A DNA stretch of 11,043 bases. It comes from a virus. Numbering within the stretch: position 1 is the first letter of the stretch; each line of letters begins with the position of its first letter. The DNA is taken from UHGV virus genome UHGV-0098765; one strand, given 5' to 3'. Below are positions 1-7,355 of the stretch, piece by piece. Position numbers and translations under genes: made by a program. The notes under the pieces are model-generated. The model saw nothing but the letters and a program-made list of their open reading frames with translations. It was not told the origin of the DNA and ran no database searches.

Positions 1-202
1 CTGAAAAAACTGACGTTCACTGGAGTGGTCGGTTTAGCGTTGCACCAATGCTCGATAGGATGTACCGTTTTTGAAAAACAAGTAGTTATATACTTTGTGG
101 GAGCCTATTGGGAACCCGGCGTTTTCATTTCAAGGTGTAATCCATACGCGGCTTAAGAATGAGATATAATGCGACTTTTAGTGTTCCGCTTGAGAGGCCA
201 TG

Positions 203-736
203 ATGCTTACCCTGGACGAGATAGGTCAATCAGTACGTAACAATATCCAGTTGATTATTGATCATGTCGGCTTACCTCTTGCTGTTGGTCCGCTCAGTGA
301 TGATGATTACAAGATTCTGTGTGGTGGCTATGGTGAGCTTGAATGGGACTATGCGTTAAGTACCTATGGCAACTCCAGAGAAAAGTATGAGTTCTGCATA
401 AAACTTGTTCAGCAAGGTCGGGTTCAGGGAATACCATCAGGAGCAGCAATTTGTGTTTATGGGGTTGAAGAAAACATCTTTCGTATCCATATGATCGAAA
501 GGTTTTCTAGAGAAGATGAATCTCACCCATTGAAAGGGCGCATGGTTTTACTCACTCTTATGAGTGCTTTTATATTTTGTAAAGCTGTTGAATGTAAAGT
601 TGTCCACATTGTAGAGCCAGTACCAGAACTGGTGCAGTATTACGAGTCTTTTGGTTTCCGCATGGAACAGTGCGGTTATGTGATGTCGGCAGTCATTGAT
701 GAGCTGCAGGATATCTTTCTTAAATTTGCTCAGTAG
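203..736 (+). CDS. Putative GNAT-fold N-acetyltransferase-like protein (177 aa; ORF track starts at 200)
   Basis: Intact ORF. GAGAGG at 192-197 sits 5 nt before the second ATG (203), too close to the first (200). Segment HPLKGRMVLLTLMSAFIFCKAVEC...ELVQYYESFGFR resembles GNAT motif A plus the C-terminal Y..GF motif. Possible -10 TATAAT at 165-170. Appears AT-richer than the prophage genes. Confidence 0.5.
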   Translation: MLTLDEIGQSVRNNIQLIIDHVGLPLAVGPLSDDDYKILCGGYGELEWDYALSTYGNSREKYEFCIKLVQQGRVQGIPSGAAICVYGVEENIFRIHMIERFSREDESHPLKGRMVLLTLMSAFIFCKAVECKVVHIVEPVPELVQYYESFGFRMEQCGYVMSAVIDELQDIFLKFAQ

Positions 737-932: not shown

Positions 933-1106
933 ATGAAAGATCAAAAAGCAACCAAGCCACAGGTTAAGTTCGACACAATGAAAGCATTCGCAGGTATGGG
1001 TGCTGCTGTTGAAGTTCTGATGAAGGCTGCTCCTAATGCGTTCACTCACGCTACTGTCTCTGGTAAAGAGCAGCAGGGTAAGCTTCGTCGTCGCAAAGCA
1101 GCATGA
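933..1106 (+). CDS. Small hypothetical protein (57 aa, MKDQKATKPQVKFDTMKAFAGMGAAVEVLMKAAPNAFTHATVSGKEQQGKLRRRKAA)
   Basis: Not in the ORF track (below its length cutoff). GGGAG at 922-926 lies 6 nt before ATG 933; stop TGA 1104-1106 is followed 20 nt later by a strong intrinsic terminator. Hydrophobic core with a basic C-terminal tail. Confidence 0.45.
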   Translation: MKDQKATKPQVKFDTMKAFAGMGAAVEVLMKAAPNAFTHATVSGKEQQGKLRRRKAA

Positions 1107-1125: not shown

Positions 1126-1155
1126 AAAACCCGCCTTCAGGCGGGTTTTTTCTTT
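1126..1155. terminator. Bidirectional Rho-independent terminator
   Basis: AAAACCCGCC-ttca-GGCGGGTTTT followed by TTTTTTCTTT on plus; on minus the same stem is followed by UUUUCAAAA. Sits between the converging plus small ORF (stop 1106) and the minus xis-like gene (stop 1154). Confidence 0.75.
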
Positions 1156-1435
1156 AGTGATGTTCTTTGCCCTTCTGTTTGACTGTTCTGACCTGTTCCC
1201 ACTCGATACGTCCTTCTTCTCGCCTTTTGTCTATGTATTCCGCAAGATCCTGAATATTGATGCAACGTTTTGCTTTTTGTGATGTGCCGATGCGATATGT
1301 TGGAACGGGCAACTTACAAGCGTTTGCTTTTGCTTCTGCCGTGGCTGGACTCATACCAAAGTACTTTTGGCTAATTGCTGAGAGTTCAATGTTTGGGGTA
1401 TTGAATTCAGCCATCAGTAAAAACAAGGTGTTCAT
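1154..1435 (-). CDS. Excisionase-like / recombination directionality factor-like DNA-binding protein
   Basis: ORF 1154..1462; the listed start at 1462 is a GTG. Preferred start is ATG 1435 (MNTLFLL...), preceded by GGAG with 6-nt spacing. Small basic protein at the end of the early-left operon, recognised by family resemblance from memory rather than a specific motif. Confidence 0.6.
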   Translation of the reverse strand: MNTLFLLMAEFNTPNIELSAISQKYFGMSPATAEAKANACKLPVPTYRIGTSQKAKRCINIQDLAEYIDKRREEGRIEWEQVRTVKQKGKEHH

Positions 1436-1471: not shown

Positions 1472-2039
1472 TCATAATTCTGTGCTGGTGGCAGGAATTA
1501 ATTTCTGCCAGATAGCGGAAACATATTTTGCCTGATGACGGGCATCAGCTATGGCGTTGTGCCGTTCGCCATCGAAAGGCATGTCCATTTTGGGGTCGAA
1601 TCCGATGGAACGCCCAAGTGTAACGATCGTGCGTACATCGTGGTCATTCCAGTACGCCCACGGGCAGATTTGTCCTGCTCGCTCATAAGCTCCACGTAAA
1701 ATTACGTTGTCGAAGGTGGCTCCGTTACCCCAGACTTTTAAATATTTCGTATTGTCTGCGTGCCGGTAAATGGTTTAGTTCTGAGAGAGCATCGCTGATC
1801 GACAAAGTATCATCAATACAGATTGCAGCTCGCGCTTCAGGGCTTTGTTTCAACCACCACAGGATGGTATCGCCGTCAGGTGTAGCTCCTTGCTTCATAG
1901 CACTGTCTAGGCTGACAACCGCATAGAATTCTTGTCCGATGTCTCCAGTTTCTGGAGTGAAGAACACCGCGCCAATGGAAACGATCGGTGCATCCTTATT
2001 TTTCCCCATCGTCTCAAGGTCGATCATTAAGTTGTTCAT
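1472..2039 (-). pseudogene. DnaQ-like 3'-5' exonuclease, disrupted by a 1-nt frameshift in a homopolymer run
   Basis: N-terminal part (MNNLMIDLETMGK...EIFK) is the track ORF 1725..2093, with start ATG 2037-2039 after AGGAGGTGA. It stops at 1725 right after the run TTTAAAAG (plus 1736-1740). The +1 frame continues VWGNGATFDNVILRGAYERAGQICPWAYWNDHDVRTIVTLGRSIGFDPKMDMPFDGERHNAIADARHQAKYVSAIWQKLIPATSTEL to stop 1472-1474. Removing one A restores a ~188-aa exonuclease. Confidence 0.65.
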
Positions 2040-2557
2040 CACTTCACCTCCTGCGGCGGTTCTGGTAGAGGCATCCAATTGATTACATCGCATTTAGGGA
2101 TGCTGATATCATCACCAAGCCACCCTTGACCTTCAGACCAGCATTGCACGTAATACCCGTATTCTGTGTTCACTACGCACCACTGCGCGTCGTTCGGCAT
2201 TCGATCACTACAGCTTATCCAACTATCCGGAGTTCCCGGATAGTTGCCATTTACATCGAAGTTTGGCTCTGCGTCCTGAACCAGGAGGATGTAACCATTC
2301 TTGGCAGTATCAAGTTCTAACGCCTCGGTGACGGTGCCGAAATAGCGATTACCTAAATCAGCATCACAAGTGCTTACATCAATGGAAACCTCCATGCCTT
2401 CGATTAATTCTGGCAAGTTGTAAGTTTGGCTTACAGGTTCTGCTCCCAGCGATGCCAGTGCAATCCGTGCCAGTTCCATTTGTTCGCCACGGGTAAGCCC
2501 GTTATCAAGCGGATTTTTAATGAATAATTCGATACGTTCTTTGGTAATAGTGGTCAT
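2039..2557 (-). CDS. DUF551 domain-containing prophage protein (172 aa)
   Basis: Intact ORF; AAGGTGA 7 nt upstream of ATG 2557. C-terminal W-rich region (WISCSDRMP...WCVV...CWSEGQGW...VINWMPLPEPP) is typical of DUF551. Stop overlaps the exonuclease start (ATGA). Confidence 0.8.
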   Translation of the reverse strand: MTTITKERIELFIKNPLDNGLTRGEQMELARIALASLGAEPVSQTYNLPELIEGMEVSIDVSTCDADLGNRYFGTVTEALELDTAKNGYILLVQDAEPNFDVNGNYPGTPDSWISCSDRMPNDAQWCVVNTEYGYYVQCWSEGQGWLGDDISIPKCDVINWMPLPEPPQEVK

Positions 2558-2559
2558 AG

Positions 2560-2751
2560 CTATTTCACCTTAATCTCAACATTTCGCAGCTTTAGCTCTA
2601 CTGGCAGGTCTGACTTTCCTGTTAATGCTAATGCGAGATTTTCTGGGGTAATGAGAGCAGTTATTGCTTTCCCCATTGCCAGACGAATAATTATTCGTAT
2701 TTCGCGATCGTCACATGCTCCTGGTCGAACAATTGATATCTGTCCGTTCAT
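2560..2751 (-). CDS. Hypothetical small protein (63 aa, MNGQISIVRPGACDDREIRIII...)
   Basis: Start ATG 2749-2751 lies 1 nt after the stop of the upstream Ea22-like gene, with GGAG upstream. The track ORF 2560..2850 extends further only in overlap with that gene. Stop is 2 nt before the next start. Confidence 0.5.
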   Translation of the reverse strand: MNGQISIVRPGACDDREIRIIIRLAMGKAITALITPENLALALTGKSDLPVELKLRNVEIKVK

Positions 2752-2752
2752 C

Positions 2753-3262
2753 TCACTCTCCTTTGATGCGAATGCCAGCTGCGCTTGCTGATTCTTCATA
2801 TGCGCGTTTAGCAGCGTTAATGATTGCTGCCAGTGGCGTATAGCCGCCATCCATTCGGATTGTGTTGTGGATGCCAGCCATTGTGTTGCGCAATTTTCTG
2901 TGGCTAGCAGACAGTTCTGCTATGCGCTTCTCTGCGGCTTCCATCTCAACGCGCAGCCTTCCTACCGTTAGCGCAATATCCTCGTTCTCCTGGTCACGGC
3001 GTTTGATGTATTGCTGGTTTCTTTCCCGTTCATCCAGCAGCGCCTGCACTACTTCAGGGTTGAAAGCTGCGATATAACGAGCGTTGTTCTCTGCGTTGTT
3101 CTGTCCATCAAAGCCGGTCCATTTGATAACGTCTTCACATCGTTTATCACCAGGTGTATGCACCGCATATGTACCAGTACCAGACGAAATAAATGCGACC
3201 CATTCACCCTGTGTTGCCAGTTGCGCCGCTTTACGCAGTGCCTGATAGTCAATCTTGCTCAC
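2753..3262 (-). CDS. Ead/Ea22-like family protein (169 aa from the GTG start)
   Basis: GTG 3260-3262 is preceded by AAGGAGG with 6-nt spacing and overlaps the stop of the upstream 79-aa ORF (GTGA). N-terminus SKIDYQALRKAAQLATQGEWV plus a central coiled-coil-like region match this family. The track start at 3298 is also GTG and lacks an RBS. Confidence 0.65.
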   Translation of the reverse strand: MSKIDYQALRKAAQLATQGEWVAFISSGTGTYAVHTPGDKRCEDVIKWTGFDGQNNAENNARYIAAFNPEVVQALLDERERNQQYIKRRDQENEDIALTVGRLRVEMEAAEKRIAELSASHRKLRNTMAGIHNTIRMDGGYTPLAAIINAAKRAYEESASAAGIRIKGE

Positions 3263-3498
3263 TGGTTGCCTCCTTTGCGGATCTGCGCTGCGATGCACGA
3301 AAAAAAAGACTCCCGCGTATGACTGTTAAGAGCTGGCGCGAACGCTGCGTTAAGAACGGCAGCATCACAGCCGTCATCGATATAGAGCGCAATTTTTTTC
3401 TCCAGGCGTGCTTTGGCTTCCTGCAACTGCATACCCCGGCACGCACGTGGGATATACTCAGCAATTTGAGCGATAGATTTTTCGTTCTGTTTAAACAT
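3259..3498 (-). CDS. Hypothetical prophage early protein (79 aa)
   Basis: ATG start with GAGGTGA 5 nt upstream; overlaps the stop of the upstream 67-aa ORF by 8 nt (ATGTTTAA), a translationally coupled chain. Confidence 0.55.
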   Translation of the reverse strand: MFKQNEKSIAQIAEYIPRACRGMQLQEAKARLEKKIALYIDDGCDAAVLNAAFAPALNSHTRESFFSCIAAQIRKGGNQ

Positions 3499-5960: not shown

Positions 5961-6096
5961 TTTGCTGCTCCTCATCATATCGACCCTGCAAGGTCGGTTG
6001 GTTTCTCCACAAAACAGAGAAGAACACCTGCGGTGGCAGCCGCCCGGATGGATTGGGTTATGAGCCCGTCGTCCGGTGATGCTCTTCTCTGTTTTG

Positions 6097-6143
6097 TAAA
6101 AAGAGCGGTACCAGCCGGAAGCAAGTGTACAAACTGGTACCGC
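6097..6143 (-). terminator. Intrinsic terminator inside the PL leader, upstream of the first early-left gene
   Basis: Minus-strand RNA: GCGGUACCAG, 19-nt loop, CUGGUACCGC, then UCUUUUUACAAAAC. 10-bp perfect stem at plus 6105-6114 / 6134-6143. The U-tract region CGCUCUUUUUACAA also resembles boxA (CGCUCUUUA). Confidence 0.5.
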
Positions 6144-6546
6144 CAAAGCAGTGGCTGTTGTGGTGGGGTTGTCACTCAGGCGTATGGTCAACCTGACAAC
6201 CCGGTGTCCTCAACGGGGAAAGAGTAACCCCGCCATACTTACCGCCGCGCCATTTCGCGGATTACCACAACGCTGAGAGCACTTAGCTAGTTACGGCACC
6301 ACACTTTGTCGCTGCTCCATAAATGCCCTCATCGTTGCACCCTGGTCTCTTCCCAGGCGTCAAACCGAATCGCCACGCTGGTTAGACGTCTTATCAGCAT
6401 CCTCATTGACTTGCACATTCCGGCTACCTGGTTTGTTTGCCCGAGCAAGGAGTGGATTGTCCCCTTTAACGTCCCCAGACCGCTAACGACGCATGTGCCA
6501 TACGCCGTGTTACAACCAAATTTTGTTAGGACCTTGTTTGTTTGTC

Positions 6547-6606
6547 TGGAAAGAAAGATAAAATGAAATTGCGTATTGTGCAAGTGTTTTGTTGCGAGTT
6601 ATGCAA
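6547..6606 (-). promoter_or_regulatory. Putative PL early-left promoter with two OL-type operators
   Basis: Minus-strand -35 TTGCAC (plus 6578-6583), 17-bp spacer, -10 TATCTT (plus 6555-6560). Two 15-bp palindromic sites TTGC-N7-GCAA at 6569-6583 and 6592-6606 match the same motif in the OR region (7376-7390). Confidence 0.5.
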
Positions 6607-6616
6607 TAGCGTGAGT

Positions 6617-6640
6617 AATGAAAAGCCACCTTCTGGTGGC
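6617..6640 (-). terminator. Intrinsic terminator downstream of the repressor gene
   Basis: Minus-strand RNA: GCCACC-AGAA-GGUGGC then UUUUCAUUACU, about 23 nt after the cI-like stop codon. Confidence 0.6.
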
Positions 6641-6662
6641 TAATTGATGTTGAGGTAGGGGG

Positions 6663-7355
6663 TTAATTGTGTCGCTTAAGGGTTTGTGACTGACTGATTA
6701 AGACCTTTCCAAAGACCATAAACCGGTGTTCGTTTTCGCTGGTAATTCCCCATTCGCGGTAAATCTGATTATCAGAAATTACCAGCAGTTTATCAGGTAT
6801 CATTTGCAGTCGTTTGACGTAAATTTTATCATCAAAACCAAATACATATATACCATCCCCATCAAACTGATTGATACTGATATCAACGAAGATAAGATCT
6901 CCTGGCTCAATGGTTGGACACATACTGTCCCCACGAACGTTGATAACTTTAATGTGATTTGCTGGTCGTCCACCAAACATCGATACAGCATTATCAGTTC
7001 TGTATTCAATGGCATGAATCACATCAATGACATCACCGCCCTGGATAAGGCCATTTCCCGCACTGGCACTGACATCCAGCATTTCAATACGGAATACATC
7101 CTTCACCTGCGCAACATCCTCACTAATACTGTTTTTACATACAGTATTACTTTTGAGGTCTGAGGTAAAGAGATCAGCAATATCAACACCTAAGCTCCTG
7201 GCAATATTACTCAGGGCTTGTTCAGTGAATTGTTTCTGCTTACCTGTTTCGAGGCGCGAGATATTCGCCGCATCCACTCCTATTGCTTCAGCGAGATCGG
7301 CGATTTTCATGTTCTTCGCCTGGCGAAGTTGTCTGACTCGATTTCCTATGTTCAT
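6663..7355 (-). CDS. CI-like prophage repressor (N-terminal XRE-type HTH, C-terminal S24 LexA-like peptidase domain; 230 aa)
   Basis: HTH region RVRQLRQAKNMKIADLAEAIGVDAANISRLETGK; candidate Ala-Gly cleavage site (SASAGNG); catalytic Ser in GDSMCPTI and Lys in KRL. Divergent from the cro-like gene; apparently leaderless, with -10 TGTAAT 6 nt before the ATG. Confidence 0.9.
   Translation of the reverse strand: MNIGNRVRQLRQAKNMKIADLAEAIGVDAANISRLETGKQKQFTEQALSNIARSLGVDIADLFTSDLKSNTVCKNSISEDVAQVKDVFRIEMLDVSASAGNGLIQGGDVIDVIHAIEYRTDNAVSMFGGRPANHIKVINVRGDSMCPTIEPGDLIFVDISINQFDGDGIYVFGFDDKIYVKRLQMIPDKLLVISDNQIYREWGITSENEHRFMVFGKVLISQSQTLKRHN

What the first reader, a model, noticed from the sequence alone, without database searches (positions are those of the whole stretch)
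1725..1745. Exonuclease gene split by a single-base frameshift in a homopolymer run
The DnaQ-like exonuclease reads through in the +1 frame after the TTTAAAAG run and is translationally coupled to its neighbours. This is a recent inactivating indel, a sequencing error at a homopolymer, or a slippage site. It bears on whether the prophage is still functional.
Basis: seen in the sequence. Interest (0 to 1): 0.35.

Follow-up and report, generated by a model that had tools for sequence, protein, structure and literature searches.

The report
Prophage exonuclease gene broken by 5-bp deletion
A common accessory exonuclease gene of an E. coli prophage is split in this low-coverage metagenome contig by a one-off 5-base deletion about 30 bases upstream of the suspected A-run; this is an ordinary fresh pseudogene or an assembly error.

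Summary
The split is real. On the minus strand a PF16473 (Rv2179c-like, DEDDh) 3'-5' exonuclease gene starts at 2039, stops at TAA 1727-1725 after 104 codons, and continues in the +1 frame to TGA 1474-1472. The two pieces match Pfam profile positions 1-90 and 95-177.

The stated cause is wrong. The TTTAAAAG run (1742-1735) is base-for-base identical in intact 190-aa orthologues. The lesion is a 5-bp deletion (CATTA on the coding strand) between window 1768 and 1767, 28 bases upstream of the A-run. Putting the five bases back gives a protein identical to E. coli WP_052970437.1, with one synonymous difference in 573 nt.

None of 431 complete-genome E. coli records that cover the site shares the deletion. 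The junction is absent from the genome, viral and JGI metagenome collections. The only carrier is the window itself, the whole contig ENA ERZ1745016 NODE_3317, k-mer coverage 2.66.

It is therefore a very recent, private inactivating deletion (most likely) or a low-coverage assembly or library artefact. Programmed slippage is not supported. The gene is an accessory, mosaic module, so its loss says little about whether the prophage is viable. Interest is low.

The parts
1472..2039 (-). Whole disrupted 3'-5' exonuclease gene (PF16473, Rv2179c-like, DEDDh). It is 568 nt here and 573 nt / 190 aa in intact orthologues.
   Evidence: Re-inserting CATTA restores a 190-aa protein identical to WP_052970437.1.
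1725..2039 (-). Frame-0 fragment of 104 aa plus TAA stop. Residues 1-90 are native and include the ExoI motif (D7, E9). The last 14 residues (LPARRQYEIFKSLG) are out-of-frame.
   Evidence: called gene; Pfam profile 1-90.
1767..1768 (-). Deletion junction. Five bases are missing between these two positions: CATTA on the coding strand, TAATG on the + strand. In intact genes the site reads CATTT-CATTA, an imperfect tandem pentamer.
   Evidence: alignment A1; BLAST gap placement against three E. coli loci.
1472..1774 (-). The +1-frame remainder, which encodes ExoII (WGNGATFD, D112) and ExoIII (HNAIAD, H162/D167). It has no start codon until Met-153 of the intact numbering, and no gene was called here.
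   Evidence: (Pfam profile 95-177).
1735..1742 (-). It is unchanged relative to intact orthologues and is not the lesion.
   Evidence: invariant columns; the 30 listed records and most of the 405 in the 90-95% band score 93.0% = 66/71, that is, identical apart from the 5-bp gap.
2037..2041 (-). TGATG stop/start overlap with the upstream DUF551 gene (2039-2557), preceded by GGAGGTG. This is the translational coupling at the 5' end.
   Evidence: the same arrangement is annotated in L001.
1154..1435 (-). Downstream PrtN-family / excisionase-like gene (93 aa). It has its own GGAG (1445-1442) and starts 36 nt after the intact exonuclease stop.
   Evidence: PF11112; phrog_1300, excisionase.

Best explanation
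A private, very recent 5-bp deletion (CATTA, between window 1768 and 1767 on the minus strand) has turned an accessory DEDDh 3'-5' exonuclease gene into a pseudogene. The gene lies in the early-left region of a dusA-integrated, mEp460-like lambdoid E. coli prophage.

Translation from ATG 2039 yields a 104-aa fragment. That fragment keeps only the ExoI acidic pair (D7, E9). The ExoII aspartate (D112) and the ExoIII H-x4-D (H162, D167) lie in the now untranslated +1 frame, so no active enzyme is made (inferred from the motifs).

The A-run at 1739-1736 only happens to lie just before the first stop codon of the shifted frame. It plays no part in the lesion. Because the gene is a dispensable mosaic module, the lesion is not expected to affect prophage induction or growth (inferred).
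For: -: three intact 573-nt orthologues (APEC 102026 prophage, phiSTEC1575-Stx2k, mEp460) align without gaps except for five extra bases at this one site. The TTTAAAAG run is invariant.
- the same 5-bp gap appears against three E. coli loci. Every other indel in the 11-kb contig is intergenic or lies in the mosaic Ea22/DUF551 genes, and each is seen against only some of the references, so it looks like ordinary polymorphism. The contig is not generally indel-ridden.
- repair gives a protein identical to WP_052970437.1, with one synonymous difference in 573 nt. There has been no further decay, so the event is recent.
- PF16473 is split at profile positions 90/95.
- D7/E9, D112 and H162/D167 are nearly invariant across 14 full-length family members and fall on opposite sides of the break.
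- 2682 homologues were found. About 90% of the 120 listed are 185-195 aa.
- all 431 E. coli records covering the site carry the five bases.
- the junction and the 104-aa product are found nowhere except the source contig.
- the matches to 13 related phage records stop within the first ~70 bases of the query, so those phages lack this exonuclease sequence and the module is accessory.
Against: - The allele is seen once only, in a SPAdes-style contig named with cov 2.66. The base calls at the junction rest on very few reads, and a library, PCR or assembly artefact cannot be excluded without the reads.
- Loss of activity is inferred from motifs and was not measured.
- Dispensability is inferred from mosaic distribution, not from a knockout.
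Confidence: 0.72

Rival explanations
1. The deletion is not in the DNA of the organism. It is an artefact of library preparation, sequencing or de Bruijn assembly in a contig with about 2.7x k-mer coverage, and the real gene is intact.
For: -: the contig name gives cov_2.656716, and the allele occurs in 1 contig of 1 sample.
- no other sequence anywhere carries it.
- the repaired gene is otherwise perfect, which an artefact would also produce.
Against: - The lesion is 5 bp in non-homopolymer sequence, not the 1-bp homopolymer error typical of sequencing platforms (general knowledge).
- A de Bruijn contig contains only k-mers present in reads, so at least one read carried the deletion (general knowledge).
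- The rest of the 11-kb contig shows no indel that breaks a conserved gene.
Confidence: 0.24
2. The split gene is expressed as one protein by slippage at the A-run. This would be a +1 ribosomal shift of tRNA-Lys on AAA_A (1739-1736), or transcriptional slippage. The product would be 188 aa, with residues 91-101 replaced by LPARRQYEIF.
For:: skipping one A of the run does join the two frames into a continuous 188-aa ORF that contains all DEDDh motifs. AAA to AAA re-pairing in the +1 frame is formally possible.
Against: - Orthologues need no shift. The same run sits in-frame in intact genes.
- The run is only A4/T3, far below the lengths known to give transcriptional slippage (general knowledge).
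- No stimulatory structure lies downstream (z = -0.12).
- No rare or stop codon sits in the A site; the codon there is AGT.
- The run is not conserved in the family. Leu102 is Met in several members.
- The allele is a singleton.
Confidence: 0.03
3. One reading: a single-base indel within the TTTAAAAG homopolymer run causes the frameshift.
For: None beyond the fact that the first in-frame stop follows the run by three codons.
Against: -: the run is identical in intact orthologues, and the only gap is the 5-bp one at 1768|1767.
- the top band of E. coli records (93.0% = 66/71) matches all 66 query bases, run included, apart from the 5-bp gap.
Confidence: 0.01

Closest known systems
3'-5' exonuclease of E. 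coli lambdoid prophages and phages (WP_052970437.1 in strain APEC 102026; phiSTEC1575-Stx2k_04; mEp460 gp26, YP_007112100.1)
   Same: - 96-99% nucleotide identity.
- Same position: DUF551 gene, then exonuclease, then PrtN/excisionase-like gene.
- Same TGATG start overlap.
- The repaired protein is identical to WP_052970437.1.
   Different: The window copy lacks 5 bp and is split into a 104-aa ORF plus an untranslated remainder.
Pfam PF16473, Rv2179c-like 3'-5' exoribonuclease domain (DEDDh superfamily); PHROG 255 'exonuclease'
   Same: The intact orthologue matches the full 177-position profile (E=4e-75). The window's two pieces match positions 1-90 and 95-177. It also matches phrog_255 at E=2.5e-93.
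   Different: The substrate of the phage proteins (RNA or DNA) is untested. In this window the domain is interrupted.
227-aa 'Exodeoxyribonuclease' of PDB entries 8KEL/8KEN (from memory, phage T4 DexA; not verified here)
   Same: It is the only solved structure found by sequence (E=4e-11, residues 3-141). It shares the N-terminal D-x-E motif and the W-x-x-G-x-x-F-D motif.
   Different: It is a distant relative with a weak sequence match, is longer, and has insertions. No functional equivalence was shown.
Programmed frameshift genes (prfB +1 at CUU_UGA; dnaX -1 at A_AAA_AAG)
   Same: The gene has two overlapping frames, with a short A-run near the end of frame 0.
   Different: - The frameshift requirement is not conserved.
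- There is no stimulatory element.
- No slippery heptamer lies in register for the required shift.
- The allele is a singleton.

Membership tests
PF16473 Rv2179c-like DEDDh 3'-5' exonuclease | Domain match above Pfam's gathering score (27 bits) | tested here: met
   124 bits for the N piece, 111 bits for the C piece and 252 bits for the intact orthologue.
PF16473 Rv2179c-like DEDDh 3'-5' exonuclease | DEDDh catalytic residues: ExoI D-x-E, ExoII D and ExoIII H-x4-D | tested here: met
   D7/E9, D112 and H162/D167 are present and nearly invariant among homologues. Assigning them as catalytic rests on general knowledge of DEDDh nucleases.
PF16473 Rv2179c-like DEDDh 3'-5' exonuclease | All motifs encoded in one continuous reading frame (a functional gene) | tested here: not met
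   the 5-bp deletion separates ExoI (frame 0) from ExoII and ExoIII (+1 frame). The locus is a pseudogene member.
Homopolymer indel / homopolymer sequencing error | Run length differs from that of intact orthologues | tested here: not met
   TTTAAAAG is identical in the intact genes.
Programmed ribosomal frameshift / transcriptional slippage | Orthologues also need a frameshift at the same site | tested here: not met
   - all 431 E. coli records covering the site carry the five bases missing here.
- the three orthologues read in full are single 573-nt ORFs.
- about 90% of the 120 listed homologues are 185-195 aa.
Programmed ribosomal frameshift / transcriptional slippage | Slippery motif in register for the needed shift, plus a stimulator (structure, SD-like element, or rare/stop codon) | tested here: not met
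   - Only AAA_A re-pairing is possible.
- Downstream fold has z = -0.12.
- The A-site codon is AGT.
- The A4 run is too short for RNA polymerase slippage (general knowledge).
dusA-integrated lambdoid prophage (context) | Prophage end abutting a displaced dusA 5' fragment next to yjbL/M-zur-yjbJ-dinF-lexA | tested here: met
   Window 1-56 aligns to the annotated 'tRNA-dihydrouridine synthase, incomplete' remnant in two E. coli chromosomes. The flanking chromosomal genes are seen only in those relatives, because the contig ends there.

The most novel reading that the evidence does not exclude
The deletion allele is real and is partly rescued by low-level +1 slippage of tRNA-Lys on the AAA_A run. 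This would give a 188-aa exonuclease with an 11-residue substituted segment, that is, an accidental suppression of a fresh frameshift by a nearby slippery site.
Probability: 0.03. Interest if true: 0.25.

Novelty: already known. Interest (0 to 1): 0.06.

Why it matters
It matters little. The result corrects an annotation-level reading:
- The gene is a common, well-catalogued prophage accessory exonuclease.
- The split is a singleton 5-bp deletion in a low-coverage metagenome contig.
- It is neither a recoding signal nor a homopolymer phase-variation site.

The practical lesson is that the first stop codon after a frameshift marks only the downstream limit of where the lesion can be. The lesion can lie anywhere in the stretch where both frames are open, here 47 nt. 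Frameshifts in contigs with ~3x coverage should not be used to judge prophage integrity.

Tried and rejected
- **Same allele elsewhere:** I searched for the junction in E. coli complete genomes, GTDB species genomes, IMG/VR and JGI metagenomes. I also looked up the exact 104-aa product. Only the source contig carries it.
- **Frameshift-stimulating structure:** folding the region downstream of the run gave z = -0.12, so this was rejected.
- **In-register T_TTA_AAA heptamer in intact orthologues as a hidden -1 PRF site:** rejected. There is no downstream structure, and Leu102 is Met in several family members.
- **General indel errors in the contig:** none break a conserved gene apart from this one. 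The others are intergenic or lie in the mosaic Ea22/DUF551 genes.
- **Literature:** searches for Rv2179c-family phage exonucleases and for the sample accession gave nothing useful.
- **Rv2179c structure:** the PDB sequence search did not retrieve it at E<0.01. It returned only 8KEL and 8KEN.

Full report
**What is in the sequence**

The gene is on the minus strand. Its ATG at 2039-2037 overlaps the TGA (2041-2039) of the upstream DUF551 gene (2039-2557) and is preceded by GGAGGTG. Frame 0 reads MNNLMIDLET...SELNH, then LPARRQYEIFKSLG, and stops at TAA 1727-1725 after 104 codons.

The +1 frame is open from 1774, after a TAA at 1777-1775. It reads ...RHADNTKYLKVWGNGATFD...HNAIADA...TEL and ends at TGA 1474-1472.

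The N piece matches Pfam PF16473 (Rv2179c-like 3'-5' exoribonuclease domain) at profile positions 1-90 (E=7e-36). The +1-frame piece matches positions 95-177 (E=6e-32). The TTTAAAAG run is at 1742-1735, with the A4 at 1739-1736.

**Where the lesion really is**

Megablast of the gene found 11 phage records and 412 E. coli records covering at least 80% of it. Full-length matches spanned 666 bases in the record against 661 in the query.

I aligned three intact, annotated 573-nt (190-aa) orthologues: WP_052970437.1 of strain APEC 102026, phiSTEC1575-Stx2k_04 and mEp460 gp26. The alignment has a single gap. The window lacks CATTA between ...AACCATTT and ACCGGCAC..., that is, between window 1768 and 1767. 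BLAST against three E. coli loci shows the same gap.

The TTTAAAAG run and its surroundings are invariant columns in that alignment. In intact genes the run is read TAT TTA AAA GTC (Y-L-K-V). The lesion is therefore a 5-bp deletion of one unit of an imperfect tandem pentamer (CATTT-CATTA), 28 nt upstream of the A-run. It is not a homopolymer indel. It lies inside the 47-nt stretch (1774-1728) where both frames are open, which is why reading the sequence alone could not place it.

**How widespread the allele is**

A 66-nt query across the junction and the run matched 431 E. coli records from 429 of 5426 complete genomes. Every match fell at or below 93.0% identity. That figure equals 66/71, meaning all 66 bases are identical and five extra bases are present. 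No record reached 95%.

The junction is absent from the GTDB species genomes as both a 28-mer and a 23-mer. The 28-mer is absent from IMG/VR and the 23-mer from the JGI metagenomes.

An exact look-up of the 104-aa product found one contig in one sample: ENA ERZ1745016 NODE_3317_length_11043_cov_2.656716. That contig is the window itself, and the name format is the one SPAdes uses. The allele is a singleton from an assembly with very low coverage.

**Age and quality**

Re-inserting CATTA gives a 190-aa protein identical to WP_052970437.1. Only one synonymous nucleotide differs in 573. Nothing else has decayed, so the event is either very recent or not real.

The other indels between the contig and its closest relatives fall into two groups:
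- Intergenic: 4592, 5962, 6035, 6446 and 6591.
- In mosaic Ea22/DUF551 sequence: 2195, 2757 and 3136-3224. Several of these are offsetting +1/-1 pairs.

Each of these is seen against only some of the references, so they look like ordinary polymorphism. The contig does not carry scattered indel errors.

A 5-bp deletion in non-homopolymer sequence is not a typical platform error. A de Bruijn contig contains only k-mers that were seen in reads. Both points rest on general knowledge. I therefore favour a real deletion (about 0.72) over an artefact (about 0.24), but only the reads can decide.

**Consequence for the protein**

In an alignment of 14 full-length family members at 64-100% identity, D7 and E9 (ExoI), W105-G-N-G-x-x-F-D112 (ExoII) and H162-N-A-x-A-D167 (ExoIII) are nearly invariant.

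The break comes after residue 90. The translated fragment therefore keeps only ExoI. The +1-frame remainder has no start codon before the equivalent of Met-153, and no gene was called there. Loss of activity is inferred from this and was not measured.

**Slippage**

Nothing else supports recoding:
- Orthologues need no shift.
- A4/T3 is too short for transcriptional slippage (general knowledge).
- The A-site codon AGT is neither a stop nor rare.
- The downstream RNA folds no better than shuffled sequence (z = -0.12).
- The run is not conserved in the family; Leu102 is Met in several members.

In intact genes T_TTA_AAA happens to sit in the X_XXY_YYZ register. For the same reasons I regard that as chance.

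**Context and relevance to the prophage**

The contig covers the early region of a lambdoid prophage. On the minus strand it carries the cI-like repressor (6663-7355), yfdP/Q/R, an Ea22-like gene, the DUF551 gene, the exonuclease and a PrtN/excisionase-like gene. On the plus strand it carries cro-like, ymfL, Rha, HTH_36 and PerC/yfdN genes.

Window 1-56 aligns to the displaced dusA 5' remnant annotated in two E. coli chromosomes, next to yjbL/M, zur, yjbJ, dinF and lexA. The contig therefore starts at the end of a dusA-integrated prophage.

The exonuclease is an accessory mosaic module. In one search the matches to 13 related phage records stop within the first ~70 bases of the query, which cover the end of the DUF551 gene and little or none of the exonuclease. 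Those phages lack this exonuclease sequence at megablast level. The downstream excisionase-like gene has its own GGAG and a 36-nt spacer. The lesion therefore says little about whether the prophage is functional (inference).

**Comparison with what is known**

The family is large and catalogued:
- 2682 homologues at E<=1e-10 across Enterobacterales. About 90% of the 120 listed are 185-195 aa, and sources name them 3'-5' exonuclease or exoribonuclease.
- PHROG 255 'exonuclease'.
- The only PDB relative found by sequence is the 227-aa 'Exodeoxyribonuclease' of 8KEL/8KEN. From memory this is T4 DexA.

**Verdict**

The split is real, but its cause was misassigned. This is an ordinary, private pseudogenising deletion or a low-coverage artefact in a known gene. 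It is already known in kind, and interest is about 0.06.

Noticed in passing
window 1-56 (and L005 2952-3056, L006 452-556): The contig's left end aligns to a 'tRNA-dihydrouridine synthase, incomplete' remnant annotated in two E. coli chromosomes. The window therefore begins at the end of a dusA-integrated prophage. The chromosomal neighbours in those relatives are DUF2713 (yjbL/M-like), zur, yjbJ, dinF and lexA.
   Followed up: partly
whole window: The window is an entire metagenome contig, ENA ERZ1745016 NODE_3317_length_11043_cov_2.656716, with very low k-mer coverage. Any single-site oddity in it rests on very few reads.
   Followed up: yes
window 1736-1745, minus strand (intact orthologues L001 around 6360-6375): In intact orthologues the heptamer T_TTA_AAA lies in the X_XXY_YYZ register of a -1 slippery site, and a -1 shift would terminate four codons later. 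There is no downstream structure, and the Leu codon is not conserved in the family, so this is probably chance.
   Followed up: partly
window 2039-3298 compared with L001 4626-6062, L005 5044-6687 and L006 2544-4047: The DUF551 and Ea22-like genes upstream are highly mosaic. DUF551 is 172 aa here, against 118 aa plus a partial copy in relatives. Ea22 is 169-181 aa here, against about 240 aa. In isolate 162 the Ea22 gene is annotated as frameshifted, so disrupted accessory genes are common in this region.
   Followed up: no
window 200-736 (+) and 933-1106 (+): Two conserved phage ORFs of unknown function (phrog_4350, 178 aa; phrog_2741, 57 aa) lie between the att-side end and the excisionase-like gene, on the opposite strand to the early-left operon. 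In strain APEC 102026 the slot beyond the 57-aa ORF instead holds a hypothetical gene and a Panacea-domain gene.
   Followed up: no
window 5961-6662: A ~700-nt stretch with no called gene lies between yfdP and the cI-like repressor gene. The same gap is present in relatives (L005 9386-10089). Several single-base indel polymorphisms map here.
   Followed up: no
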